From a virus (taxonomy: Duplodnaviria; Caudoviricetes), in IMG/VR virus record IMGVR_UViG_3300032004_000002, positions 1 through 64,000 of that record: a DNA stretch of 64,000 nucleotides. The stretch is one strand, 5' to 3'. Numbering within the stretch: the stretch's first letter is position 1; each line of letters starts with the position of its first letter. The translations under genes were made by a program, and so were the position numbers. Below, piece by piece: positions 26,204-54,347 of this stretch. The notes under the pieces are model-generated. The model had not been told where the DNA came from, did no database searches, and saw only the letters and a list, made by a program, of their open reading frames with translations.

Positions 26204-27451
26204 TTACAAAAGAACTTCTTGCGAAGACTGGAATGTAAAGGTAGGTGTTCCTGTTACGTTAACAGTTCTCAGGCGTACATATTTGCCTGCCGGAATAATA
26301 CCAGATAAGTTGGCTGTTCCTAGGTTTGTAATACTCAACACACCACCGGTTGATTGACCACTTGAACCAACAACTGTTACCCCGGTTGTAAATCCAATTT
26401 CGTTAGCATACTCAAGATAAACACGTCCCGATGTGCCAGCGATTAATACGGCAGCAACAGTTATATCTACAGAATAACTTACCTGTGCATCTTGTGTAGA
26501 ACTAATCTGAAATGCTGTGTTAAGTGTACGTGCCGGATTGGTAAATGTTCTTACCGGAGCACTGTAATTAGGAACATTCAATACACCAGTTGTGCTATTG
26601 TATGTTGCGGCCCCCGTTGTTCCCGTAGTAGTTAAACTTACAGAAGTTCTTGCTCCGGATTGAGTAATATAACTATTGGGGTTAGTAGTTCCGTTATATG
26701 GAGTATAGCCCAACGCTGTAGATACTTGACTACTACTAATATTTGTCAGATAACCAGCGTCATTTGTAAATGCACTAACAGCAGTTGGAACTGTAGGGAT
26801 AGCTGGGAATGTAGCCAAACTGCCATCACCACGAAGATACTGAGTGGTAGTGCCTACAGGAGTATTAAACTTAGTAGAAAGACCGTTTGTCAATGCTGTT
26901 GTTGTAGCATATCCAGCAAGACTAGTACTCAACGCAGATTGACTCACAGCATCTGTGATCCCATAACCAGATACAGTTGTTGGTGTGGCTGTAATAGTTG
27001 ACCAAGCTTGTGTATGGGCTGCGGGAGTAAAGGTGGAAGGTTTGTTGAGCAATACTCCTAAACCACTAACAGCATTCCAATCAGTCTGGACTTGAGCAGG
27101 GGGCGAAGGAACCTGAGAAAGGGTTATGTATCCAGCATCATTTGTAAGTTCGGAAACATTTTCAGGAATTTCAATTCCTAACATTCCCCTGATCATTTGC
27201 TCAGAATTAGATGCTATGATTTGTTGGGCTAGCGGACTGAATGTGAATGGCTTGAAATTTGAAGACGAGTCAGTGCCCATCAGTACAGAAGGTATCTTCA
27301 TACTGGGGACTACAAATCCACTACCTTCCATTTGGTTTGAGCTATTTTTATAGAACAACTCATTTACAGGCATTTCTGCAAGGAAGGTATCCAAACGAGG
27401 GTCGGTTACAGAACCACCACCTTTAACGGGTCTTTGGGGTCCAATAGCCAT
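26204..27451 (-). CDS. virion fibre-like protein outside the tail module
   Basis: TNDAGY repeats, QTDWN, LNKPSTF, PTTVSGYGITDA motifs typical of phage fibre shafts. Confidence 0.6.
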   Translation of the reverse strand: MAIGPQRPVKGGGSVTDPRLDTFLAEMPVNELFYKNSSNQMEGSGFVVPSMKIPSVLMGTDSSSNFKPFTFSPLAQQIIASNSEQMIRGMLGIEIPENVSELTNDAGYITLSQVPSPPAQVQTDWNAVSGLGVLLNKPSTFTPAAHTQAWSTITATPTTVSGYGITDAVSQSALSTSLAGYATTTALTNGLSTKFNTPVGTTTQYLRGDGSLATFPAIPTVPTAVSAFTNDAGYLTNISSSQVSTALGYTPYNGTTNPNSYITQSGARTSVSLTTTGTTGAATYNSTTGVLNVPNYSAPVRTFTNPARTLNTAFQISSTQDAQVSYSVDITVAAVLIAGTSGRVYLEYANEIGFTTGVTVVGSSGQSTGGVLSITNLGTANLSGIIPAGKYVRLRTVNVTGTPTFTFQSSQEVLL

Positions 27452-27729
27452 TATTGTTCACCATCATTAACCATGATCACTACACGTCCAGCAGACGTGC
27501 AACGAATCCAAACACCTGATAAAGTTCCATCAAGATAAACAGTAGCATTAGAGGCAACCGAATACCCATCTGTTGTGGTCACTGGGGTGCTTGGTCTCAC
27601 TTGGATTAAAAATGGGGCCGTGATCTTATTTTGAATAATAAGAGGTTGACCAACAGTAATACCGGTAGCAGAATAAATCTCTGTCCAAACACCGGCAACA
27701 AGTTGTAAATCAGGTAAAGTATTTGCCAC
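27451..27729 (-). CDS. hypothetical, probably a virion accessory protein
   Basis: 92 aa beta-rich ORF translationally coupled to the fibre gene. Confidence 0.5.
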   Translation of the reverse strand: MANTLPDLQLVAGVWTEIYSATGITVGQPLIIQNKITAPFLIQVRPSTPVTTTDGYSVASNATVYLDGTLSGVWIRCTSAGRVVIMVNDGEQ

Positions 27730-27779
27730 TTTAAAACACCTTTTATTATTTTATTTAGAGGTGTCTTGTACTGAGGAAT

Positions 27780-28156
27780 TATAGCCTATAGACAGACAGC
27801 ATAGGCTTTTGGTTGGGCAGCCTCTCTGCTTTGAATCAACCGACCATACTTCATAAATGATTGGTTATAGTATAGTTGATTAGTCTCCCACGCTACCTTG
27901 GAACTAACCTCTGCCTCTACACAATAAGAAGCTCTCACCACTGATCGTCTTTCCGATCTGCCATTTATTTGATCACCTCTTCATTTAAGCATAAACCTAA
28001 ATGGTTAGAATTCCCCGATGGGTATCAGCACAAAGGTGCATAACGGCTCTAACATCACCTACACGTCTTTCCGTAAGTGTCATTTACAACAGACCCCGCC
28101 AGAGGTCTTAAGGTGAGAACTAGGCAGCTCTCGATACCAGACCGCAGTCTGATTCT
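27780..28156 (-). ncRNA. candidate large structured ncRNA (~370 nt)
   Basis: No ORF; many nested stems; two identical C-GGAAAGAC-G loops; terminal AGCCUAU/AUAGGCU hairpin. Confidence 0.6.
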
Positions 28157-28576
28157 TTATTCACCATCATCTTCGTCATTAGGATCAATATATACTAGTG
28201 ACAATCGAGGTTTACTTTGTTCTGCTACTTCTTCTACGGTTGGTTCATCAATTTCAGCTTCGTCCCTTTTCCCTTTAAGACGTGCTTGAAAGTTACCAAG
28301 CTCATCTTGAGATGCAGAACGAGTCATTGTGACAATTGCTGAAAGCAACCACTTAGCACTTGAGAGACTTTCTGAGTTAACTTCCATCTCATTAAGACTG
28401 CGATCAACCAAAGCAATTGCTACATCTTCACGCTCTTGAAGTTTCTCGGCCAACTTACGAAGCTTGGATTTATTAACACGAACCTTACTATTTCCCTTCA
28501 AATTTTGGTTGGACTCTTCAGCACCAAACCTATTCTTAGGGCTAGGATTTCTATTTGTAGTTTTCTTAGTAGTCAT
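28157..28576 (-). CDS. hypothetical, possible terminase small subunit
   Basis: Basic NPSPKNRFG..NQN.KG N-terminus, helical core, acidic tail; upstream of the terminase operon. Confidence 0.4.
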   Translation of the reverse strand: MTTKKTTNRNPSPKNRFGAEESNQNLKGNSKVRVNKSKLRKLAEKLQEREDVAIALVDRSLNEMEVNSESLSSAKWLLSAIVTMTRSASQDELGNFQARLKGKRDEAEIDEPTVEEVAEQSKPRLSLVYIDPNDEDDGE

Positions 28577-28600
28577 GAGATTACCTATTTGTAAATAATA

Positions 28601-28790
28601 TTTCTTAAATACACTCTATTACAGAATGTCTGTGTTCACTACGTGAGGAATGTATTTAAGAAAGCTCACTTATCACGGGAGAGAACATAATAAGTGAGCG
28701 AATAACCAAACAATCCGAAGAGGAGGAGAGAAAAGATTGTTTGGTTAGGAAGACAAAGCTATGTTATAGAATTTCTACTTAGGCTTTGTC
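28601..28790 (-). repeat. array of four abutting perfect inverted repeats (13, 10, 13, 8 bp stems)
   Basis: 28601-613/28651-663; 28664-673/28690-699; 28703-715/28735-747; 28752-759/28783-790. Confidence 0.85.
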
Positions 28791-28798
28791 GGGAGAAA

Positions 28799-28884
28799 TG
28801 GTGGTTGAAGGAAGGAATTGAACCTCTAGCCTTGGCGCCGGATTTACAGTCCAGTGATAGTAGCCATCTATCTCTACATCAACC
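28799..28884 (-). tRNA. tRNA-Tyr(GUA), non-canonical
   Basis: Anticodon arm CUGGA-CUGUAAA-UCCGG, T-loop UUCAAUU, encoded ACCA end; 13-nt acceptor+T 3' strand. Confidence 0.75.
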
Positions 28885-29009
28885 AATAAATAATCCTAGC
28901 GTCTGCTAGGCTACGGCGAAGTACTACACTACCTCTCGCCCTGTCTTGCTCCGTGATTATCTCCATGATAATTCTGCACCGAAGACTTTATGTTCACGTT
29001 AAACACTAC

Positions 29010-29084
29010 AAGCCCTCAAGGGGAGACTCAATAAACTCCGTCAAGTTTAAGGAGTGGATTACCACTATCTACAACAAGGGGCTC
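29010..29084 (-). pseudogene. highly degenerate tRNA-like element
   Basis: 75 nt, GAGCCC/GGGCUU terminal stem, D-loop-like AGUGGUA, ACUCC/GGAGU stem; no T-loop. Confidence 0.3.
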
Positions 29085-29099
29085 AAAGGCCTATACACG

Positions 29100-29178
29100 A
29101 AAACAAGATGAAGGGTTCGAACCTTCGGATGCCTCAGTATTGGGTTTGCAGAACCCACTGCTTGCATTCTATCTGCGT
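29100..29178 (-). pseudogene. pseudo-tRNA (Cys/Ala-like anticodon arm)
   Basis: Perfect T-arm GAAGG-UUCGAAC-CCUUC, UGGGU-UCUGCAA-ACCCA arm; bulged acceptor, no CCA. Confidence 0.55.
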
Positions 29179-29314
29179 CAACAATAGTCCACTCTGTCAA
29201 TCATGTCTCGGAAATGACGCTGTAAAGTCGCCGTCATACTTTATTTGATGCTCAGAGATTTCAACTAAGCACATCAAATTCTTCCCAGCAATTTTCACTG
29301 TCTGACTCGGTATA

Positions 29315-29342
29315 ATTATAGCACCTTTCTAACCATTGTCAA
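29315..29342 (-). promoter_or_regulatory. strong sigma70 promoter TTGACA-16-TATAAT with TG extension, driving the RNA locus
   Basis: Consensus boxes directly upstream of the tRNA-like cluster. Confidence 0.8.
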
Positions 29343-29374
29343 GCAATTTGTAACAATAAACGTTATTTACTACA

Positions 29375-29548
29375 TTAATCTTCATAATCAGGCATTATTT
29401 TCTTAAATCGAGTACCGTAAAAGGAACAACCTTCATGTTGATACTCAAATCTAAACTTGCCTTCAATGATTTCATCTTCTAGCATTTCGTCACAATTACA
29501 GTCTTTATATTCATTGCCACAGGAAGGGCAATAGTACAATTCGCCCAT
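29375..29548 (-). CDS. small Cys-rich hypothetical protein (57 aa)
   Basis: Manual translation MGELYYCPSCGNEYKDCNC...; GGAG RBS. Confidence 0.55.
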   Translation of the reverse strand: MGELYYCPSCGNEYKDCNCDEMLEDEIIEGKFRFEYQHEGCSFYGTRFKKIMPDYED

Positions 29549-29621
29549 CTGTGGACTCCTTATTAGTTATCAATAAAAGAACTATAAACGACACACAGTG
29601 TTTCTGTCAAGCATTATTATT

Positions 29622-29906
29622 TTAAACTGTATTGTATCCACCAAATACAGAAGGAATACACCAATTATCTTTAATCATTTTCTGTTTCTTTGCATTCAAT
29701 ATCTTTTCTTCTGTCTTTAGTTTCTTACAGGAAATAGACTTCCACGGTTCGGGGCAACACCCTACACAGACACAAGAGTGCGGATTGAAATTAGGAAGGT
29801 ATCGTTCTTTACTTCCGCACTCTAGACAACCACGTTTGATATTGAAATGATTAGTTTTACTTTTTACCGCTTCTGCAATCGTCATTGTTGGTAGTTCATT
29901 GTTCAT
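29622..29906 (-). CDS. hypothetical Cys-rich protein
   Basis: CLEC..CVCVGCC; coupled to the polymerase-like gene. Confidence 0.55.
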   Translation of the reverse strand: MNNELPTMTIAEAVKSKTNHFNIKRGCLECGSKERYLPNFNPHSCVCVGCCPEPWKSISCKKLKTEEKILNAKKQKMIKDNWCIPSVFGGYNTV

Positions 29907-31264
29907 TTCTTATCAACCTTGCAAAAAGTTTTATCCCCTAGTACTGTTTCCCATGCTGCATACATGGCGTCTTCTAAATCTTTCTCAGCGCTAGCTTTAA
30001 CCAAGCAACTGTCATGATAAGCTAATACTGTATGCCCCTTGACCCCCATTGCACCAACAATACGCATCATGATCTTACTATCAATATTCTGCAACGTAAT
30101 ACCGGCATCAGAAAAGAAGTGCTCTGCAATAAAATCGTTATGACTTTGCACAGCCTCAAGTACTGCTGAATAATCTACATTACCAACCATTGCATAAAAC
30201 TCTTGATCTTCAATACTATTTTGAGCACGATCAATCTTTACTTTATTACCAAGTGTCCAAGCTGCGCTGTTCTTATCATTAGAATTCATACCAATCAAAA
30301 TAGCTAGCTTAGCTAACTGTCGTACTGGATTGTGTGTTTTACCTGTCACACTTTCCCACTGTTCTTTCAAACGACCATCAACTTTAATAAACGAAAGGTC
30401 TGCATTGTAAGGAGAGAAGTCATCCCCCATCACATCATAAATACTAAAGCCATCTGTATTGTACATAAGCTGATAGCAGATGCTTGGGTGAATTGCTGAA
30501 TAGTCCAACTCCACAACCGGTTCACCGTCAATCTTCAGAGATGATGCACGCACATGTTGTGGAAGAAGCTGCACACCACCACCAAGAGTATAGAGACGTC
30601 CACCACTATCCAAATCCCCACTAAAGATACGGCGGTATGCAACATCAGCAATCGGACGATCATCGAAAGTAATAGATGCACCAGCCAGCATATCATTCAT
30701 ACTCTTAACCTCACCTTTGATGTCTTTAAATCCTTTATGACCCCGTGTTGGAATCATCTCTTTTGTCTCACGATTACGAATGATAGCTAGGTCATTATCT
30801 TCAAGCTCTTTCCATAGGTTGTAATTTGTATTCACATCAGTCCACATGTCTGCTGTTCTCTTTTTAAATATCATACACGAAGGAATGGACTCATCTGGAA
30901 TAAGACTTCCTTTGTGCATCTTCCAAGACTTCACATAGCCTTTATAAAGATCAATGTAACCCTTTGACTCAAGGAAGTCAACAAGAGATTTAATCTTTCT
31001 GTACCCAATACCTTGTCTTGACTTAGTGTAAGCATGTATATCAAGACTGAAGATAAAGCCACCAGCATTCTTCTTCACTGCACGAGCAGAGTTAGACACC
31101 CACCATCTTACTGCTTCTTCCCATTTATAGTTGGTATGTTCTAATACCTGATCTACAATCTTCTTGTAGTACTTAGACTCATGGAAATAGATATAACTTC
31201 GTACACACCTTAGATTAACAGAGTAAGCTTGATGCTCTGTCATATTACTTAATTCATAGATCAA
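29903..31264 (-). CDS. minimal PolA/T7-RNAP-superfamily polymerase-like protein
   Basis: GGRLY, motif A ELDYSAIHP, motif B RQLAK, motif C YHDS in the correct order; TTG start with AAGGAG RBS. Confidence 0.7.
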   Translation of the reverse strand: MIYELSNMTEHQAYSVNLRCVRSYIYFHESKYYKKIVDQVLEHTNYKWEEAVRWWVSNSARAVKKNAGGFIFSLDIHAYTKSRQGIGYRKIKSLVDFLESKGYIDLYKGYVKSWKMHKGSLIPDESIPSCMIFKKRTADMWTDVNTNYNLWKELEDNDLAIIRNRETKEMIPTRGHKGFKDIKGEVKSMNDMLAGASITFDDRPIADVAYRRIFSGDLDSGGRLYTLGGGVQLLPQHVRASSLKIDGEPVVELDYSAIHPSICYQLMYNTDGFSIYDVMGDDFSPYNADLSFIKVDGRLKEQWESVTGKTHNPVRQLAKLAILIGMNSNDKNSAAWTLGNKVKIDRAQNSIEDQEFYAMVGNVDYSAVLEAVQSHNDFIAEHFFSDAGITLQNIDSKIMMRIVGAMGVKGHTVLAYHDSCLVKASAEKDLEDAMYAAWETVLGDKTFCKVDKK

Positions 31265-31420
31265 TCACTTATTCTCCTTGTTGTTGGTAGTAGAGGATAG
31301 AGAGGTGTTAGTAGATAGATGTATTGTATTACATGTTCTCCTCTACAGCCCCCGGTTTATAAGGGTTTGTGCCCTTTCTACTCGGTACTTTCTCATAAAT
31401 GCTCTCTAATTCATCTACTC

Positions 31421-31522
31421 AGTCTACACCCAATCCCACCCACGTCAACCCCCTCTCCAAAACAATTTATCCCACCCTCCTCAGAAAATACCCTTGACAC
31501 CCTGTCTGGTAGAGCTTACTAT
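31421..31522. promoter_or_regulatory. divergent sigma70 promoter pair
   Basis: Leftward TTGACG-16-TAGACT (31448-31421); rightward TTGACA-17-TACTAT (31494-31522). Confidence 0.75.
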
Positions 31523-31577
31523 AGCTAAACACAACGAGGTAAGCATAGCTCTATCAGCGATTCACATATGAGGGGAT

Positions 31578-34500
31578 TTGAAGATGACATACGAAGAAAT
31601 GTATAAGGATTGGAAGTATTTGTGGGACATTGCACCAGCAAATGATATGACTGGTGGTTATGTAGATCAAGATGACTTGAAACGAATGCTCAAAAGTCCA
31701 TCCAAGGCCACAGCGAAGTATTGCCTTGAACGACAAATGGAATATTGGTTTCAGGCTGGCCCTGATGGGTTTGAAATTTGCAGGAACTATGAACATCTTT
31801 GTGAAGAGTATCCAAAAATTGAGCAGATCCGTAAGAAATATGATTTCAATGTAAGGGACTGGCTATGAAACAAATCCAAAACACCCCAAATGGCTGGATG
31901 GCCTACTGCTCAGCCATCAAAGAATCTGTACAAAGAGACTTGACGAAGCGTGACTATAGTGTGATGATGGCTTCGTATATTGGAAGGGTTAGTGTGGATG
32001 AGTGTGTTAGTCAATTGGAGAATAAATAATGACACACATTAAATCAGATTGGCACGAAGGTCTGCTTTGGGCTGAAGATCTTTGTAAGGATGGAGAAGGT
32101 TGGGGAGCAGTGCCTGTGAAGATTATGCTGTCCTATGTTGAAGATGCTTCTTGGAGTTTTGAAGATAGGGAATCTTTTATTGAAGGAGCATTCGATTATG
32201 CTGACCATATTTGGCACAGAGTTGAGGGGTAGATGATGAAACAGTGGAAGATTTATTTGATTGTTGCGATTATCTCCGGTTTTCTTGCAGGTGTGGTCAA
32301 ATACAACGATGACTATATGGTGGAAAAAGACGTACATGTAACATTTATAGATAAAATGGAAAGAAATAGCTGCCACAAGTCAAATTGCACAGGTAAGTTG
32401 TACGGACTGTTCAAGACAGATGATGGAATATTCTTTGACAGACAAATCAGCATGTATATGTACACACAAATGAAAGTAGGGGAAGACTTTAATCTAACTT
32501 TACGAAGGATGGACATTAAACAAACAGGCTGGGATAATGTGATTTATTTCTTTGGTGTCATAACCATGTCTATATTTGTTGTCATGCTCATTGCCTCCCC
32601 TTTAGCGTATTTTGTTTTGGATAAGGAGGATAATTGATATGAGCACCCTACGAGTAATTGAACGTAAACACGGAAAACACAAGGCTTGCTAAGAAAGCTG
32701 TAGAAATATAGCTCAAATTAGCCTATCAATCCCTTGTTTGATGCAAGAAATGATGTATAATTTCAACGTAAATTGAAAATGGAAGGCAGCACAAAGCTAT
32801 AGGAATGTTGCCCTATTTTGATGTGATAAAATCAACGGTAATTTATTAGGAGAGAATTATGAATGTAGGTGAGCTGAAGAAAATGCTTGAGAAATATCCA
32901 GACGAGATGGAAATTTTGAATGGTCGGTACAGTGATTATGATTTGGTTGAGGAAAATGAGTGGCACATTGTTAAGGCAGTTCCTAAAGATGGTTATGTAA
33001 TGCGCTCACATCCCACAATGAGCGAAGAGAACAAGAGTCAAGAAAAAGAATATCTTTACTTGGAAGGTAATTAAGATGAATAATCTCCCATTACTAAATG
33101 CAGAAGAACGTCAAGCACTCTTGGAAAAGGGTAGGCTTGCGAAGTTAGCCAAGAAAGAATTCGCCGAGGCTAATCTTAAATTGGACTATTCAGATGAGAA
33201 TTATTGGACCACCAAATCAGCAGAGCTTGGTATTCGATTACCGCAGAAGTTTGCTGTAGGAGCAAAAGGTATTCGTAAGACAGCTAAAGCACTTGGTGTA
33301 GATATAAAAGAGTTCCTAGATTCAACGGGCTGTAATAACTTGAATGAACTATGCGCGTTGAATCCGACTTGGAACTCAAGAGCACTTGCATCTTTAGTTG
33401 TGGAGTATTATCTTGACGTCCAATAAGGAATATGTAATCATTCAAGCACTACTTAGTCTATTCGGTAAAGTGGACTTACAGACTCCAAAGGATGTGCAGA
33501 TTATTAAAGAATTACATAAAATGCTTAAGGAGATTGAAGAATGAAACTAACCAGTAATCAAAAACAACTCAGCGTGTCAGTTCCAATGCTCATATTCTCT
33601 TTTATGGGGTTGTACTTGAGTTACCCAGCAATTTCACTGTCTTTAGTGCTATGGTTCCCGTTTATTGCTGGGATGGGATGGACTTCTGCAATTCTTGTTA
33701 TTCTTTTTAGTCAGTCAAAATTTGCAAAATGGCTTTTAAGGGATGACAAATGAACATCCAACAAATTGACTACATCAAAGCCCTCAACACAAAATATCCA
33801 TCAGGAACGCTTCAATACATTCTCCTGCAAAACAATTTGCAATCAGCAACATTTGAGGGTACATTGAAGTGGCTGCTTGAAAGGTATGTTGAGCATGTTG
33901 AGGAATACAAGGCTGAGAATGCTAGGATGGCTTTAGCATTGAAGAAGAACAACTTATACACATCAGAGAATGTTTTAGGAGAGTAACAGTGACAGATTTT
34001 AATGAGCTTGTAGGGATTACAGTGAATAGCCTGATTATCAACGATGATAAGACATGTCTAGTGTTTCGAAGTAATGAGAATGTATTGTATTTCTATGAAT
34101 CAGAGTTTGTAGAGATTCGTGGTGTAGATATGTTTGATGATAAATATGGGAACATTAATGGGTATGAGATTATTGGTACAGAATCTTTTGGTGATCATTA
34201 CTTGATTAACTTTAGGGAAGATTATTCATTGTCTGTCAAGAGTGGGACAGAGATTAAATGTGCAGGTGTGATCAATGAGAATGTGTTGAAAGATGCACAT
34301 AAGTTTAGTCAATTGGTTGAGGATTTTTAAACATGAGTCACATACTTCGTAATTCATTGTATGCGTTATATCGTAACGATCATGACATTCTGAATATGCT
34401 AGAGCAGCTGGATTTTAGCGAGCTTACTAGAAAATTTGATGACGAGCTGTACAGCCGTATGCCTAAAGAGCAAGTTAAGCTTGCCCAAGCAATGTTGACA

Positions 34501-45087: not shown

Positions 45088-46242
45088 ATGGAAGAAGAGT
45101 GGAAACAATTAGAAGGTTATTCATTATACTTGATTTCTAACACAGGTAAGATAAAAGAAGTAGCAACGGAAAGATTACTGCCTCAAACAGTCAATGGTGG
45201 GTTTTGGTGCAGTAATCTACATAGAGATGATGGTGTAAAGGAGCTTGCTAAAGTTCACAGACTTGTTGCCACATTGTTTGTACCGAACGAATTTAATGCT
45301 AATCGTGTGGGACACAAAGAAGATCGTCTAGACAACACGTATACCAACTTAGAGTGGAAACCTAAAAGAGTAAAGGAGGTAATAGAAAAAGAAATTAAAA
45401 CCCTAACTCACTTGGGAAGAACTTACACTTATGCGGAATTCTGTGAGGCTGCTAAGTGTGAAATATCAACACTGCGGTCAAGATTAAATAGTGGTTGGAC
45501 CGTGAGAGAATGTTTTATAGGTGTTAAAGATTTTAAAGGTCAAGGCTACCAAGATGAGTATTGCTGGTATCCAACCCGACAGGAATATGAAAGTGGACAA
45601 GTACAGAGAAGACTTGAACAGAAAGTGAAGGATAAACAAGAAAAGAATAAAAGGAATGCTTTAAAGAGAGCTGAAAGGAAAGCTAAGATACATCACGGGT
45701 TTGGTATATTTGTAAACTACCCTATCAAAGGAATTGAAGGACGTAGACCTTCTAGGGCGTACTATGTGTGGCAAGGGATTATTGCTCGATGTCACAATGT
45801 TGATCACGACAGCTATGAAAGATATGGTGGAAGAGGTTGTACTGTTAGTGAAAAATGGAAGCACTTTCAAGACTTTGTTATCTGGTATCAGGAACAGCAA
45901 AAGAGAGGTATGGGGAATGCTCATGTAAACTGGCATGTGGATAAAGACATTCTGGTAGATGGTAATCTAGAGTATGGACCTGACACCTGTTGCTTTGTTC
46001 CTGATGATGTTAATATTTTCTTTGCAAGTCTTAAAGAAACAGCTAGAGGATATACAGAGTACAAGGGTAAATGGACTTCTGGAGTTTCTATTCTAGGCTC
46101 TAAAAATCAACGATGCTTTGATACAGAAGATGAAGCTCGTAATTGGTATCTGAAAGGCAAGTCAATGGCAGCCCAACTTCTTCTTTGGAAATATGAAGGA
46201 TTATTAGAGGATAGGGTTGTAAACAAACTTTCCCAAATATAG
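45088..46242 (+). mobile_element. NUMOD4-HNH homing endonuclease with a second nuclease-like domain
   Basis: WKQLEGYSLYLISNTG (NUMOD4), VHRLVA..F..H....N (HNH), then YGGRG..W..F and DKDIL..GN..YGPDTC. Confidence 0.8.
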
Positions 46243-48962: not shown

Positions 48963-49516
48963 GATTTAATCTCCATAGTCCGCAACACACTGCATATAAT
49001 CTTCATACTGACAACTATCACAAGCTGTACCTTGACCCCGATTGGGCATCACCATTGCATGGCAGCAAGAACACACAGGGAAACTTTTACCGTTGTCATC
49101 AACTTGATAGGTTTGAGGGTGGTTATAGTCATTCACACTATCGTAAAAGTAATCCTCAAAGACTTCTGCAATAGCCCGTTCCATCTCTTTGTGGTAGCGA
49201 TCTTCTAGCTGTTGTTCTTCCAACAATGATGCAGAAAGAGCATCAAGTAGTTCTTGTTCTTCCGAGTACTTCAATTCTTCATTAGTCATTTCTATATCCT
49301 CAATTAACAAGCCATTTAATTAAACACATCCCAAGCATACTCAACCCTACATACACAGTCAAGCTATTTCCCATCAATTTCTTAACATTTGATGCAGAAA
49401 ACCAAGGTAGTGCGGGCGATAAGGGATATTGTCGTTGTGGGACTCATCCTGCCGGATGTTGACAGACTCTTGATAGGATTCTTCCATGTCTTCATAGTCG
49501 TCTTCGTAATCATCCA

Positions 49517-50324: not shown

Positions 50325-51026
50325 TTAAACCAATATTTTCAACAATACTAACACAACCACAGAGCTAGTCAAGAAATAAATCAAATCCCTAGGCACTTTT
50401 ATGGCCACAATCCCCTTATTTGATGCAGAAAACTGAGGTGAATTCCTACGTTCTGTGTCTACCTCTTTGTCTGACACAGATGGAGAGTTGTCGTAAGAAT
50501 TTGTGTAATATTCTTCCTCATCTTTGTCTGTAGCTCGCTGTGTGTTGATAGCCTTTTTGTATAACACTTCAGCACGTTCTTTACGAGCAAAGGCTACATT
50601 TCTTAAGATTGTGTATTCTTCAGGGCTGTATTCACCAGAACGATAGGCTTTCTCAAGCTCTAGGATTTCTGCGTTGAGTTTATCAAGTCTTGAAAGTTGT
50701 GGTATAATCCTTTGTTTTAATGGAATTTTTGTTGACTTCTTGGTTCGTACAACAGGATCGGCATAAGCAAGTAAGTTTGCCTTTCCGTTTGGTAATGTGT
50801 GGGACAAGTTCACAGTGTCATTCTCAGCATATATCTCTAATGGAACATCGTAACTATCTGTTATTTGTTTGCGGACATGCCAGTAATCCGCCCCAGAAAG
50901 GTCACGAGTAAGCATTGTAGACGGATTTTTCCACTGTCTACCATTACGGGATAGACAAGACCAGTCATCATAATCACCGACTGTAGCTGAATCACCGTAA
51001 CCTGACCGACCTTGACCTTTCCACAT
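50325..51026 (-). CDS. hypothetical protein with a C-terminal membrane anchor
   Basis: 233 aa, hydrophobic C-terminus LIYFLTSSVVVLVLLKILV. Confidence 0.55.
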   Translation of the reverse strand: MWKGQGRSGYGDSATVGDYDDWSCLSRNGRQWKNPSTMLTRDLSGADYWHVRKQITDSYDVPLEIYAENDTVNLSHTLPNGKANLLAYADPVVRTKKSTKIPLKQRIIPQLSRLDKLNAEILELEKAYRSGEYSPEEYTILRNVAFARKERAEVLYKKAINTQRATDKDEEEYYTNSYDNSPSVSDKEVDTERRNSPQFSASNKGIVAIKVPRDLIYFLTSSVVVLVLLKILV

Positions 51027-51088: not shown

Positions 51089-51745
51089 TCAAGCGTCCTT
51101 TGGAAGATTCCCATAATTTTCATACCTATCAATCAGAGCCTTTGCAACCCTTTCATCGGTCTGTTCTTTGGCAAGTATACGAGCCTGCTCTAATTTAAAC
51201 TTTAACCAAGCTTTGTGTCCCTCTTTTGGGTCATTATATAATCCCAGATGTTTACTTTTATTCATAACGACATCCCTGCACTCAGCTTTATATTTACCCG
51301 AGTTACTATCAAAACTTACGCCAATAAGGGAACCATTTTCCTCCGAACCTCTTTTGTTACCAATGAATGTATTTATTCTAGCATCAATAAAAACACAAGT
51401 GTCCGGGCCGTATACCTTATTTCCTGGGACTAAAATGTCTTTATCTAACTCTTTACCCTCCCAAGGTTGTGAAACCATCCAAGCCTTGAAGTTACTGAAT
51501 AAGAGCCATTCCTGTATAACTAAACAGCCAACGTAGGTAGGATAATCCAAAAGAAACTTGCTGCTATAGCAACGTCTGAGCATACCACACCACCGTTGGT
51601 AGAAGGGGCAGACCCTGAGTGTTGTTGTCTTATCACCTGGGATATCCCGTTTGTACACAGTATAGTCAGCATCGTTGATACCAATGCCGTAAATTAGTCC
51701 TCTATTTCTATTCATATATTCCTTCCTCAATAAAGAAACCCACAA
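51089..51745 (-). mobile_element. HNH-like homing endonuclease
   Basis: YGIGIND, YQRWCGML.RC, ELDKDIL.PGNKVYGPDTC..N; AP2-like C-terminus. Confidence 0.75.
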
Positions 51746-53208: not shown

Positions 53209-54347
53209 CTTGCACCAGCAGTTCAGAAATTTTCTTCACCCTGTCCAAATACCCTTGTGTATTTTCATCCCACTTAAGGTCGTTCTCGTAAGAGAAAGTC
53301 CAATTGCTAAGATGTTCTTTGGCTGCTGTCTCAGAATCAAGCTCAAGGGCATACCCCAAATCGTACGACAAATCTGACCAACCTTGAAGGTATTCAGGTT
53401 CGTACAAGTCTCCAGTCATAGGACCAAAGTAGGCATCTGGCTGTGTTTGGGCAATAGCTTTTTGTAATGCTAGGAGGTAGGTCATTTCCAACCCTCAAAA
53501 ATTGTTTCGTAAACTTCTTTACCATTCGGAGTGCTGACCTTAAGCTTCTCAGTAATCCAGTCTGTATTCTGATGGAATACTTGACCAGCACAGAAAATAG
53601 CTTGGGACAAATCAGTACCAACGACTTGATAGTTCTTTATGCGGGTTTCATCTTTGTCAATATGAATCTGTTCAACATACACATCATAGATTTTCATCTC
53701 ACACCCCACCTAAGTTTTTAGCTACCGACTTGACAAGCTCGCCTCTGAAATGACTTGAGCCTACAAGGTTCTTGCCATCACAACATAGCCACATATTCTT
53801 CTCAGACACTTTATCATGTGTCTTGCTGAATGTGAAGCCAGCTTGAATTAGAGCTTGTTCTACTTGGGATGTGTTCATACCAACCTCACTACATAGCGAA
53901 CAGCACCATAGGTCAAGTCTTTCTTGTTAGCAAAGTTACGTGCTGCTTGGCCTTTACCTTCACCATATTGCTTGATCACTGCTTTGGTTTGGATGTCTAC
54001 CACTTCGTATGCGATTTTTATGGCTGTGATTCCTATATGTTGTTTGTATAGAGACAGAATAGCTAGAGTGGAAGGTTGTGTCAAGGATTATCTTCAGCTA
54101 TACCCAACTTTCTCTTTAACACTCTCAAGCACTTCCAAAGCTTCAGCCTTAAGCCTACATTCTGTCAAGTAATTAATAATCCCCATCAGACCAAATGCAT
54201 TGATCGTTCCCCAGCTATAACCGTAGAAATGATAAGCTTCTGTGTAGCTTTTAGAGGTTATCATCAAATGAAAAGATTCTCTACTCCATTTTATAGCTTC
54301 GTCAGTGGTCATATTTCATCTCATATCTGTTATTTGATGCAGAAAAA

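What the first reader, a model, noticed from the sequence alone, without database searches (positions are those of the whole stretch)
29903..31264. Stand-alone 453-aa polymerase of the PolA / T7-RNAP superfamily
Seen, in the correct order: DLDSGGRLY (cf. T7 RNAP DWRGRVY), motif A ELDYSAIHP (cf. Pol I DYSQIELR), motif B R-x3-K with L and N where Pol I has F762/Y766, GITLQNIDS, and motif C YHDS (cf. T7 IHDS). There is no 3'-5' exonuclease domain, and the N-terminal ~200 aa look wHTH-like. Established: minimal superfamily-A polymerases (TV-Pol type) are known from mobile elements but are largely uncharacterised. Inference: a phage RNAP about half the size of T7 RNAP for middle/late or ncRNA transcription, a primase, or a template-independent polymerase; loss of the YG motif suggests altered sugar or template selectivity.
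Basis: partly seen in the sequence, partly recalled or inferred. Interest (0 to 1): 0.8.

Follow-up and report, generated by a model that had tools for sequence, protein, structure and literature searches.

The report
Miniature accessory family-A polymerase (divPolA2)
This phage gene encodes a real, probably active, half-size relative of DNA polymerase I and T7 RNA polymerase with a DNA-binding-type front domain; the family was named divPolA2 in 2024 and nobody has tested what it makes, and the evidence here favours an enzyme that starts new chains at chosen DNA sites over a general transcriptase or a repair polymerase.

Summary
ORF 29903-31264(-) is a 453-aa protein with a conserved TTG start, and every quoted motif is present.

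**Fold.** The AlphaFold model (pLDDT 93) matches only family-A DNA polymerases and single-subunit RNA polymerases (Z up to 13.5). It has no exonuclease domain and no two-helix thumb. The N-terminal domain is weakly winged-helix-like.

**Known family.** It belongs to divPolA2 (Yutin et al. 2024, PMC11348598), whose function is untested. This scan has already reported the family in at least 22 other genomes. It is the phage's second polymerase, beside a T7-like primase-helicase/PolA replisome.

- In 267 members the catalytic R223/D254/K319/D418 are invariant. The residues that Pol I and CcPol use to reject ribonucleotides are replaced family-wide by H259, L/M323, N327 and S419. The published exemplar is a lone exception with the DNA-polymerase-like residues.
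- Four divergent bacterial proteins fuse a complete DRT4 reverse transcriptase to this polymerase core.
- Bacterial relatives lie beside integrases, resolvases and transposases, the setting described for TV-Pols. The family is nearly absent from plasmids.
- The genome has no T7-style repeated promoter.

**Best reading (about 0.4):** a site-targeted, de novo-initiating primase-polymerase, possibly making RNA. A mini transcriptase (0.25) and an accessory DNA polymerase (0.15) remain open.

The parts
29903..31264 (-). Coding sequence of the 453-aa divPolA2-type polymerase (P0001). It starts with TTG. Its TGA stop overlaps the ATG of the next ORF (ATGA).
30815..31264 (-). N-terminal domain, aa 1-150, with a winged-helix-like alpha/beta fold. 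It takes the place of the exonuclease and thumb regions of Pol I.
   Evidence: Models. Matches are nearly all winged-helix proteins but weak (VIA Z at most 5.8, Foldseek E at least 0.12). A weak profile hit to TrmB has E 0.27.
30638..30814 (-). Linker, aa 151-209, with one 15-residue helix (179-193, conserved N190). It stands where family-A polymerases have a two-helix thumb.
   Evidence: DSSP secondary structure of the model; N190 invariant in A1
30587..30637 (-). Beta-hairpin, aa 210-226, with GGR223LY225. This is the T/DxxGR motif arginine.
   Evidence: R223 is 100% and Y225 96% conserved in 267 members. It aligns to Taq TGRLSS and to T7 RNAP 416-428 (not significant).
30479..30523 (-). Motif A, aa 248-262. 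D254 is the catalytic aspartate. H259 occupies the steric-gate position (Taq E615, Klenow E710).
   Evidence: HMM alignment to Taq Pol I; D254 100%, H259 97%
30281..30328 (-). Motif B (O-helix), aa 313-328: R315-x3-K319-x3-L323-x3-N327.
   Evidence: R 99%, K 100%, L/M at 323, N327 92%
30074..30103 (-). GITLQNIDSK, aa 388-397, with conserved Q392 and D395. By register it corresponds to Pol I Q849 and the T7 RNAP H784-x2-D787 region (my inference).
   Evidence: Q 87%, D 96%
30002..30025 (-). Motif C, aa 414-421. H417-D418-S419 holds the second catalytic aspartate, followed by Ser instead of the DNA-polymerase Glu.
   Evidence: H 99%, D 100%, S 90% with G/A 8%
31421..31448 (-). Sigma-70-type promoter candidate, TTGACG-16-TAGACT. 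It is conserved as TTGACA-N17-TAATCT-like in relatives, which implies early expression by host RNA polymerase.
31353..31394 (-). Conserved 42-nt block in the leader, unique in the window. It is a candidate protein-binding site (operator or initiation site); its function is unknown.
   Evidence: Conserved in 7-8 relatives whose flanking sequence has diverged. Single copy in the window. No covarying RNA fold.

Best explanation
The gene encodes an active member of the divPolA2 family. This is a palm-and-fingers core of the family-A polymerase superfamily that lacks the proofreading domain and the two-helix thumb, and it is joined to an N-terminal winged-helix-like domain. It is made early, from a host-type promoter. 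It is extra to the phage's own T7-like replisome (primase-helicase plus PolA with exonuclease). The most likely mechanism, which is inferred and not shown, has three steps. The front domain places the enzyme on a particular DNA site. The core then starts a chain de novo on the opened or single-stranded template and extends it only a short way. The product is handed to the replisome, for example as the first primer at an origin or at a restart site. In short, it would work as a primase-polymerase in the sense proposed for TV-Pols. The positions that Pol I and CcPol use to exclude ribonucleotides are replaced family-wide by His, Leu/Met, Asn and Ser, so the product may well be RNA or mixed. Shown here: the fold, family membership, conservation of the catalytic residues, the genomic setting, and the existence of the fusions. 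Inferred: de novo initiation, site targeting, the sugar choice, and the link to replication.
For: **Identity**
- The model has pLDDT 93.
- The top 20 fold matches are all family-A DNA polymerases or single-subunit RNA polymerases. Examples: 9qsc Z 13.5 (246 aligned), 8jrb Z 13.4, 6ymv Z 12.3, Klenow Z 11.7, T7 RNAP Z 11.4. The best Foldseek E-value is 7e-7.
- The A1 profile hits the published divPolA2 exemplar AUR84708.1 at E 5e-36 over profile positions 43-448.

**Active site**
- R223, D254, K319 and D418 are 100% conserved and R315 99% in 267 members.

**Not the replicative enzyme**
- The genome also holds a primase/helicase, an 811-aa PolA with exonuclease and canonical D..E, R..K..Y..Y and HDE motifs, and an exonuclease.

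**Primase-polymerase line**
- hhalign to the Ma-LMM01 TV-Pol gives E 7.6e-5 over 148 columns. The two share GGxQ, D-x4-H and K..IN.
- 371 bacterial loci were found. They lie in the genera of Iyer's TV-Pol list, next to tyrosine integrases or a resolvase with transposases.
- The only TV-Pol that has been tested, CcPol-MP, is a primase (PMC7581432).
- Four divergent proteins (34-66% identical to one another) fuse a complete DRT4 reverse transcriptase to this core without the front domain, and they keep GGRLY, DYSxxH and HDS.
- DRT4 makes random single-stranded DNA (PMC12783706). In DRT7 the equivalent place in the protein is held by an AEP primase-polymerase that copies the DNA made by the reverse transcriptase.

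**Targeting and timing**
- The front domain's matches are nearly all winged-helix DNA binders.
- The gene heads a transcription unit at a divergent junction, behind a conserved sigma-70-like promoter and a unique conserved 42-nt block. The same position is kept in 83-92 kb relatives.

**Sugar choice**
- H259 is 97%, N327 92% and S419 90% conserved, whereas CcPol keeps the E710 and F762 equivalents and uses dNTPs.
Against: - No biochemical data exist for any divPolA2 member.
- The phage already has a primase domain in its gp4-like protein, so a second primer-maker needs a special role.
- Yutin et al. report 1-3 paralogs per genome in variable neighbourhoods, not next to replication genes. Aeromonas phage 2L372X has two full-length copies.
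- The winged-helix assignment is below the usual significance thresholds.
- The link to TV-Pol is moderate only: hhalign probability 62% and HMMER E 0.005.
- The GC-skew turn at about 32 kb simply follows gene orientation, so it is not independent evidence of an origin.
- In ICP1 the theta origin is 'near 60 kb', while the homolog lies at 52.4-54.0 kb of ICP1_2006_C. That is suggestive at best.
- The motifs GGRxY and HDS, and the lack of the gate Glu, fit a transcriptase equally well.
Confidence: 0.4

Rival explanations
1. It is a miniature single-subunit DNA-dependent RNA polymerase. It would be made early by host RNA polymerase and would then transcribe a set of phage genes, middle/late genes or non-coding RNAs, from promoters read by its winged-helix-like domain.
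For: The sequence features are RNAP-like: GGRxY (T7 RNAP R425/Y427; alignment), motif C HDS as in T7 RNAP rather than HDE, and no steric-gate Glu or F762/Y766 equivalents. Fold matches to mitochondrial RNAP (Z 12.3) and T7 RNAP (Z 11.4) are as good as those to DNA polymerases, as Yutin et al. also saw. No sigma-70 region 2 was found in the genome and the protein has no other RNAP match. The gene sits at the head of the strand block that runs into the structural genes, and this holds in relatives too. Paralogs with different front domains could read different promoter classes. ICP1 is said to encode no RNAP, and its late genes do not need replication, yet ICP1 has a full-length homolog.
Against: There is no repeated phage-specific promoter: no 16-mer occurs 3 or more times, no 12-mer occurs 5 or more times, and the only enriched intergenic words are AT-rich -10-like strings and the ribosome-binding site. 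Strong sigma-70 consensus promoters are present, for example a 12/12 match at 29342-29315. Without a thumb, the processivity needed for a roughly 27-kb late block is hard to see. Bacterial relatives sit in small integrase/resolvase elements, where a private transcriptase is unexpected. The T7 residues Y639 and G542 are not matched (the protein has N327 and H259). There is no Pfam RNA_pol hit at E<=10.
Confidence: 0.25
2. It is a primer-dependent accessory DNA polymerase for repair, lesion bypass, gap filling or recombination-dependent synthesis. It would be distributive because it has no thumb, and error-prone because it has no proofreading.
For: The best fold matches are DNA polymerases (apPol, Aquifex Pol I). 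Yutin et al. give this as their first option. The published exemplar AUR84708 has DNA-polymerase-type residues: gate E, O-helix Y and motif C FDE. CcPol alone can only extend primers.
Against: 97% of members lack the gate Glu, 92% lack the O-helix Tyr and about 98% lack the motif C Glu. These are hallmarks that the phage's own PolA keeps. A sequence-reading front domain and an early-operon position are not expected for a repair enzyme. No repair genes are linked to it. A fusion to a template-independent reverse transcriptase suggests action on single-stranded DNA that has no primer.
Confidence: 0.15
3. It is a template-independent or otherwise unconventional nucleic-acid synthase. It could make decoy or signalling polymers that act in the phage-host conflict, for example against host defences. 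Alternatively it serves the adjacent non-coding RNA locus.
For: The core is fused to DRT4, a defence enzyme that makes random DNA. Polymerase theta and other family-A enzymes can act without a template (established knowledge). A 1.5-kb ORF-poor region with a tRNA-like gene lies just downstream.
Against: The template-contacting hairpin Arg and the Q392 region are conserved. The non-coding locus has its own 12/12 sigma-70 promoter. The family is far more widespread in phages than any one defence system would explain.
Confidence: 0.1

Closest known systems
divPolA2 (Yutin, Tolstoy, Mutz, Wolf, Krupovic, Koonin 2024, Virol J 21:200; PMC11348598), exemplar AUR84708.1 of Vibrio phage 1.063.O
   Same: It shares the architecture: a family-A palm and fingers with motifs A, B and C, no thumb, no exonuclease, and an N-terminal globular domain. 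It is a second polymerase beside a regular replicative one. It is homologous by profile (E 5e-36). It also matches the barbavirus copies and Barba5S gp036.
   Different: This phage's regular polymerase is a T7-like PolA, not a PolB. The exemplar carries DNA-polymerase-type residues (E, Y, FDE) at the three positions where this protein and 90-97% of the family have H, N and S. The paper found no similarity for the N-terminal domain, whereas the matches here are consistently, though weakly, winged-helix.
TV-Pol family (Iyer, Abhiman, Aravind 2008; PMC2579912), e.g. Microcystis phage Ma-LMM01 BAF36121.1
   Same: It is a minimal family-A core with the hairpin Arg, two palm Asp and RxxxK. It also shares GGxQ, D-x4-H and K..IN (hhalign E 7.6e-5). 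Bacterial relatives of this protein lie with integrases, resolvases and transposases, as described for TV-Pols.
   Different: It has no two-helix coiled-coil thumb. It has no D5-like helicase fusion or neighbour in this phage. Its front domain is alpha/beta and winged-helix-like rather than all-helical. The sequence link is only moderate (probability 62%).
CcPol-MP primase of SCCmec (Bebel et al. 2020, PMC7581432; Rice 2023, PMC10061031)
   Same: It is a truncated family-A polymerase from a mobile element that starts chains de novo. It is the only member of the TV-Pol circle that has been tested biochemically.
   Different: CcPol needs a small OB-fold partner (MP), and no conserved small partner follows this gene. 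CcPol keeps the E710 and F762 equivalents and uses dNTPs, whereas this protein has H259 and L323.
T7-type single-subunit RNA polymerases, including N4 RNAPII and mini-vRNAP
   Same: It shares the right-hand palm and fingers fold (Z 11.4 to T7 RNAP, 12.3 to yeast mitochondrial RNAP, 6.8-8.2 to the N4 enzymes). It also has GGRxY, HDS and no gate Glu.
   Different: It is about half the size of T7 RNA polymerase. It has no Pfam RNA_pol or RNA_pol_N match. Its front domain is unrelated. N327 stands in place of Y639. The genome has no repeated promoter set.
DRT7 (UG10) RT-primase-polymerase defence proteins (bioRxiv 10.64898/2026.04.18.719102)
   Same: The DRT4-divPolA2 fusions found here share its domain logic: a class-1 reverse transcriptase followed by a second, DNA-templated polymerase domain.
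   Different: In DRT7 the second domain is an AEP primase-polymerase, whereas here it is a family-A core. The phage protein itself has no reverse transcriptase.

Membership tests
divPolA2 | Sequence homology to the published exemplar AUR84708.1 and to the barbavirus proteins | tested here: met
   The A1 profile hits MG592441.1 25478-26644(-), inside AUR84708.1, at E 5e-36 over profile positions 43-448. tblastn hits 115 Rheinheimera barbavirus records.
divPolA2 | Family-A palm and fingers with intact motifs A, B and C | tested here: met
   Fold Z up to 13.5. D254, K319 and D418 are 100% and R315 99% conserved in 267 members.
divPolA2 | No thumb homologous to DNA polymerase thumbs, no 3'-5' exonuclease, and an N-terminal globular domain instead | tested here: met
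   DSSP of the model shows one 15-residue helix (179-193) between the N-terminal domain and the hairpin. The N-terminal 150 aa fold as a separate alpha/beta domain.
divPolA2 | Encoded in addition to a regular replicative DNA polymerase | tested here: met
   An 811-aa PolA with exonuclease, plus a primase/helicase, lies at about 64.8-69.7 kb of the same 84.7-kb genome.
TV-Pol (Iyer 2008) | Beta-hairpin with an absolutely conserved Arg, two palm Asp, and fingers with RxxxK | tested here: met
   R223, D254, D418, R315 and K319
TV-Pol (Iyer 2008) | Thumb built on two antiparallel coiled-coil helices | tested here: not met
   Only one short helix (179-193) is predicted in that position. Yutin et al. 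report the same for the family.
TV-Pol (Iyer 2008) | Detectable homology to a published TV-Pol | tested here: inconclusive
   Against Ma-LMM01 BAF36121.1, hmmsearch gives E 0.005 over 54 positions. hhalign gives probability 62%, E 7.6e-5 over 148 columns. No other reference TV-Pol sequence was available, and the paper's supplement is not held.
TV-Pol (Iyer 2008) | Linked or fused to a D5-like helicase, or to a resolvase, integrase or transposase | tested here: not met
   This was not seen around the phage gene. It is met for bacterial relatives only.
T7-like single-subunit RNA polymerase (Pfam RNA_pol PF00940 / RNA_pol_N PF14700) | Match to the family profiles | tested here: not met
   hmmscan of P0001 against Pfam at E<=10 gives 0 families. 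hhalign against a T7-like RNAP alignment aligns only 13 columns, at E 0.11.
T7-like single-subunit RNA polymerase (Pfam RNA_pol PF00940 / RNA_pol_N PF14700) | Sugar-selecting Tyr (T7 Y639) and a small residue at the gate (T7 G542) | tested here: not met
   By the R-x3-K register and the Taq alignment, these positions hold N327 and H259. The T7 residue numbers come from established knowledge.
T7-like single-subunit RNA polymerase (Pfam RNA_pol PF00940 / RNA_pol_N PF14700) | A set of near-identical phage promoters in the genome | tested here: not met
   No 16-mer occurs 3 or more times, and there is no enriched intergenic motif beyond AT-rich and ribosome-binding-site words. A few divergent promoters would escape this test.
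Pol I-type family-A DNA polymerase (PF00476) | Profile match; steric-gate Glu; O-helix F/Y...Y; motif C HDE | tested here: not met
   There is no Pfam hit. The protein has H259, L323, N327 and S419, while the phage's own PolA has all four canonical residues. The fold is shared.
PolA-SSB primase (CcPol-MP type) | Conserved small OB-fold partner encoded next to the polymerase | tested here: not met
   The genes immediately downstream in six phages share no similarity. Their folds were not predicted.

The most novel reading that the evidence does not exclude
The His/Asn/Ser-type divPolA2 enzymes would be the smallest natural DNA-dependent RNA-synthesising polymerases. They would be guided by a winged-helix domain to make either transcripts or origin primers. 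On this reading, model phages thought to lack any RNA polymerase (ICP1) carry one. The same core would be reused by a bacterial defence system, fused to DRT4, to copy DNA made by the reverse transcriptase.
Probability: 0.3. Interest if true: 0.85.

Novelty: new member of a known kind. Interest (0 to 1): 0.5.

Why it matters
divPolA2 is one of the largest phage enzyme families with no tested member. A profile search finds at least 10,899 clusters at 50% identity, none of the 31 diverse members scanned matches a Pfam polymerase family, and every database name seen is 'hypothetical protein'.

The family occurs in ICP1, a tractable model phage. The ICP1 literature states that the phage encodes no RNA polymerase, and how its replication starts is unknown.

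Knowing whether these half-size polymerases make RNA or DNA, and where they start, would do three things:
- It would fill a gap in how many phages begin replication or switch transcription.
- It would define the minimal working core of the Pol I/T7 RNAP superfamily.
- It could yield a very compact, programmable polymerase.

The family-wide His/Asn/Ser replacement, the single Glu/Tyr/Glu exception and the DRT4 fusion give concrete experiments to run.

Tried and rejected
**Sequence and profile searches that gave nothing useful**
- Pfam, NCBIfam and PADLOC scans of the protein returned no family.
- phmmer and hmmsearch against PDB sequences gave only non-significant hits: TrmB at E 0.27 and Taq at E 1.8.
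- hhalign against the phage's own PolA (probability 2%) and against a T7-like RNAP alignment (13 columns, E 0.11) was not significant. The RNAP alignment had low diversity (64-88% identical to T7 RNA polymerase).
- megablast of the locus against phage records found no match.
- The ESM Atlas returned only 'hypothetical protein' clusters.

**Tests of specific roles**
- Plasmid Rep idea: rejected. Only 3 of 72,556 plasmid records match the bacterial relative, and none match the phage protein.
- Conserved small partner subunit (as in CcPol-MP or N4 RNAPII): rejected. The downstream genes are unrelated to one another, although several are translationally coupled.
- Structured RNA leader: there is no covariation, and the consensus fold is only -1 kcal/mol.
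- Iterons: only GGGTGGGAT occurs twice, 36 nt apart. That is too little to call.
- Own-genome search for PF00940 was uninformative, because the control genomes were also silent.

**Literature and data look-ups**
- No RNA holder is listed among public runs for 27000-32000.
- The ICP1 literature gives the origin only as 'near 60 kb', and no late-promoter motif or phenotype is reported for the homolog.
- The supplement of the TV-Pol paper is not held as text.

**Limits of the tools**
It was repeated with five bacterial members.
Full report
**1. Observation**

The minus-strand ORF 29903..31264 encodes 453 aa from a TTG start. An AAGGAG sequence lies 9 nt upstream. The same start, TTG or ATG followed by I-Y-E/D-L, is kept in 20 related contigs.

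- GGRLY in a hairpin (aa 210-226)
- ELDYSAIHP (motif A)
- R315-x3-K319-x3-L323-x3-N327 (motif B)
- GITLQNIDS
- YHDS (motif C)

The gene's TGA stop overlaps the ATG of the next small ORF.

**2. What the window is**

The window is the first 64 kb of an 84,724-bp complete viral record with 127-bp direct terminal repeats. The DNA comes from rhizosphere and soil metagenomes.
- Positions 1-27.4 kb, minus strand, hold myovirus structural genes: tail fibre, baseplate, tape measure, sheath, major head protein, portal and large terminase.
- Positions 31.6-46 kb, plus strand, hold small genes plus PhoH, a ClpP-like protease and a methyltransferase.
- Positions 64.8-70 kb hold a T7-like replication module: a 575-aa primase/helicase, an HNH endonuclease, an 811-aa PolA with exonuclease, and an exonuclease. 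Thymidylate synthase and ribonucleotide reductase follow.

The polymerase studied here is therefore a second polymerase, about 35 kb from the replisome genes. The replicative PolA carries the canonical D-x4-E, R-x3-K-x3-Y-x3-Y and HDE motifs.

**3. Fold**

An AlphaFold2 model built on 51 homologs has mean pLDDT 93 and pTM 0.88.
- The VIA-align search of 48,161 chains lists only family-A DNA polymerases and single-subunit RNA polymerases in its first 20 rows. These include apPol 9qsc (Z 13.5, rmsd 4.3, 246 aligned), Aquifex Pol I (Z 13.4), yeast mitochondrial RNAP (Z 12.3), Klenow (Z 11.7), T7 RNAP (Z 11.4), T7 DNA polymerase (Z 11.3) and the N4 enzymes (Z 6.8-8.2).
- Foldseek agrees, with a best E-value of 7e-7.
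- DNA polymerases and RNA polymerases are effectively tied, so the fold does not settle the product.
- There is no exonuclease domain. Between the N-terminal domain and the hairpin there is only one 15-residue helix where Pol I has its two-helix thumb.
- The N-terminal 165 aa were modelled alone (pLDDT 86). Their matches are almost all winged-helix proteins (Nse1/3, CodY, CAP/FNR, MarR/PadR, ORC/Cdc6). The scores are low, however: Z at most 5.8 and Foldseek E at least 0.12. I therefore call the domain winged-helix-like, not proven.

**4. Family**

Pfam, NCBIfam and PADLOC return nothing for this protein. PHROGs places it in phrog_4756, 'unknown function' (E 4e-79).
- tblastn finds homologs in 244 phage records: Rheinheimera barbaviruses, Vibrio phages including ICP1, and Aeromonas, Pseudoalteromonas and Shewanella phages. 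All are annotated as hypothetical.
- A profile search of 1.84 billion cluster representatives finds 10,899 with E<=1e-3 and 4,614 with E<=1e-30.
- The literature search led to Yutin et al. 2024 (PMC11348598). They named this family divPolA2. They describe it as lacking a thumb and an exonuclease, with an N-terminal domain of no detectable similarity, as extra to the regular polymerase, and present as 1-3 paralogs per genome. They proposed a repair DNA polymerase or an RNA polymerase.
- Membership was tested directly. The A1 profile hits their exemplar AUR84708.1 at E 5e-36. It also hits the 553-aa ICP1_2006_C protein ADX88373.1 at E 2e-58 over the full length.
- No later paper uses the name divPolA2.
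- This scan has already reported the family in at least 22 other genomes, with the same identification.

**5. Relation to TV-Pols and mobile elements**

- The profile also retrieves bacterial proteins. One is P0241 of Rhodovibrio salinarum (E 2e-68), which lies among DDE transposases, a resolvase and an integrase.
- A scan of one genome for each of 185,579 species found 371 confirmed loci. They are mostly in alphaproteobacteria (Loktanella, Roseovarius, Sulfitobacter, Paracoccus, Methylobacterium, Rhizobium) and in mycobacteria. These are the genera listed for TV-Pols by Iyer et al. 2008.
- In two of the loci inspected, a tyrosine integrase lies one or two genes upstream.
- hhalign of the family against the Ma-LMM01 TV-Pol BAF36121.1 gives E 7.6e-5 (probability 62%) over 148 columns. 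The two share GGxQ, D-x4-H and K..IN.
- The family is almost absent from plasmids.

I therefore treat divPolA2 as a phage-rich branch related to TV-Pols. I do not file it as a TV-Pol, because the defining coiled-coil thumb is missing and the sequence link is only moderate.

**6. Active-site census**

I aligned 267 members.

| Position | Role or equivalent | Conservation |
|---|---|---|
| R223 | hairpin arginine | 100% |
| D254 | motif A aspartate | 100% |
| K319 | motif B lysine | 100% |
| D418 | motif C aspartate | 100% |
| R315 | motif B arginine | 99% |
| H417 | motif C histidine | 99% |
| H259 | Taq E615 / Klenow E710, the steric gate | 97% |
| L/M323 | Klenow F762 | Leu or Met in about 89% |
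| N327 | Klenow Y766 / T7 RNAP Y639 | 92% |
| S419 | Klenow E883 | 90%, with Gly/Ala 8% |

- The equivalence of H259 to the steric gate comes from the HMM alignment to Taq. The equivalences of 323 and 327 follow from the R-x3-K register.
- CcPol, the only biochemically tested member of the TV-Pol circle, keeps the E710 and F762 equivalents and uses dNTPs (PMC7581432).
- The single exception in my set is the published exemplar AUR84708. It has Glu, Tyr and F-D-E at the three positions, which is the DNA-polymerase state.
- This three-way switch suggests that the positions work together. It also suggests that the common His/Asn/Ser state is not a standard dNTP-selective site. Whether it admits NTPs is inference only.
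- ICP1 and both copies in Aeromonas phage 2L372X have His and Asn with HDA or HDS; Barba5S gp036 has Trp at the gate position with Asn and HDS.

**7. A fusion that bears on mechanism**

A search for longer relatives found four proteins of 934-950 aa.
- They are 34-66% identical to one another and come from different data sources. P0390 occurs on five contigs.
- Residues about 10-510 match the complete Drt4 (UG15) model (E 1e-169).
- Residues 659-937 align to aa 155-453 of the phage protein (26% identity, E 3e-17). They keep GGRLY, DYSxxH and HDS in all four; P0390 and P0393 also keep R-x3-K..N. The front domain is absent.
- P0390 sits in a defence island with a type I restriction system and a PDC-S41 helicase.
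- DRT4 makes protein-primed, random single-stranded DNA (PMC12783706).
- In DRT7 the corresponding place is held by an AEP primase-polymerase that copies the DNA made by the reverse transcriptase.

By the logic of non-homologous displacement, the divPolA2 core is a module that works on DNA lacking a primer. The scan's notes contain no earlier mention of this fusion.

**8. Local setting**

- The gene is the first of its strand block, next to a 313-bp divergent intergenic region.
- In 83-92 kb relatives (35-90% protein identity) the arrangement is the same, with the large terminase gene about 4-5 kb downstream.
- Upstream, a TTGACA-N17-TAATCT-like promoter is conserved. A 42-nt block (31353-31394) is also conserved, is unique in the window, and shows no covarying RNA fold.
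- In Barba5S, ICP1, 2L372X and 1.063.O the gene also lies within a few kb of a divergent junction among small genes. This fits early expression.
- No conserved small partner follows the gene.

**9. Tests of the transcriptase idea**

- The genome has no 16-mer present three or more times and no 12-mer present five or more times.
- The only enriched intergenic words are AT-rich -10-like strings and the ribosome-binding site.
- Strong sigma-70 consensus promoters exist.
- No sigma-70 region 2 was found. The PF00940 genome search was uninformative.
- A T7-style promoter set is therefore absent, but a handful of divergent promoters cannot be excluded.
- The ICP1 literature says that phage has no RNA polymerase and that its late genes do not depend on replication. 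The ICP1 theta origin is 'near 60 kb', while the homolog lies at 52.4-54.0 kb in ICP1_2006_C. Neither fact is decisive.

**10. Verdict**

The protein belongs to a family that has been described computationally but never tested, so it is a new member of a known kind.

I rank the mechanisms as follows:
- A site-targeted, de novo-initiating primase-polymerase, with a product that is possibly RNA (0.4).
- A miniature transcriptase (0.25).
- A primer-dependent accessory DNA polymerase (0.15).
- An unconventional synthase (0.1).

The identity and activity statements carry about 0.9 confidence. The steps on initiation, targeting and sugar choice are inferred.

Noticed in passing
L130:10001-12814 (proteins P0390-P0393): Four divergent bacterial proteins of 934-950 aa join a complete DRT4/UG15 defence reverse transcriptase to a divPolA2 polymerase core. 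P0390 lies in a defence island directly after a PDC-S41 helicase and a type I restriction system. I found the fusion neither in the papers I read nor in the scan's notes.
   Followed up: partly
L011:3470-4762 (Vibrio phage 1.063.O AUR84708.1): The published divPolA2 exemplar is atypical. It has Glu at the gate position, Tyr in the O-helix and F-D-E in motif C. In contrast, 90-97% of 267 family members have His, Asn and H-D-S.
   Followed up: partly
window 28577-29374 (minus strand): An ORF-poor stretch lies behind a perfect 12/12 sigma-70 promoter (29342-29315). It contains a tRNA-like gene at 28803-28883 (Rfam tRNA 28.8 bits against a gathering score of 29, missed by ARAGORN, CCA encoded). 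A second T-arm-like GGTTCGAACCC sits at about 29110-29126, and several terminator-like hairpins follow.
   Followed up: partly
window 31353-31394 (minus strand): A 42-nt leader block upstream of the polymerase gene is conserved in relatives whose surrounding sequence has diverged. It is unique in the window and has no covarying RNA structure. It may be a protein-binding site.
   Followed up: partly
window 31433-31441 and 31469-31477: GGGTGGGAT occurs exactly twice, 36 nt apart, and one copy lies in the spacer of the candidate promoter. There are no other exact copies in the window.
   Followed up: partly
window 45088-46242, 51089-51745; L001 3055-3726, 17733-18353: At least four paralogous HNH endonuclease genes (phrog_953) are present. 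One sits between the primase/helicase and PolA genes. Another follows a ribonucleotide reductase large-subunit gene that appears split into two ORFs (L001 15074-17092 and 17028-17681). This looks like homing-endonuclease traffic.
   Followed up: no
window 49387-49401, 50418-50432, 54332-54346: The 14/15-mer ATTTGATGCAGAAA(A) is the only word of 14 or more bases that occurs three times in the genome, and all three copies are on the same strand.
   Followed up: no
window 29622-29906 and 29375-29548 (minus strand): The two small ORFs after the polymerase gene are cysteine-rich (CxxC pairs, zinc-ribbon-like). The first is translationally coupled to the polymerase gene (ATGA overlap). They are not conserved in the other phages compared.
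   Followed up: partly
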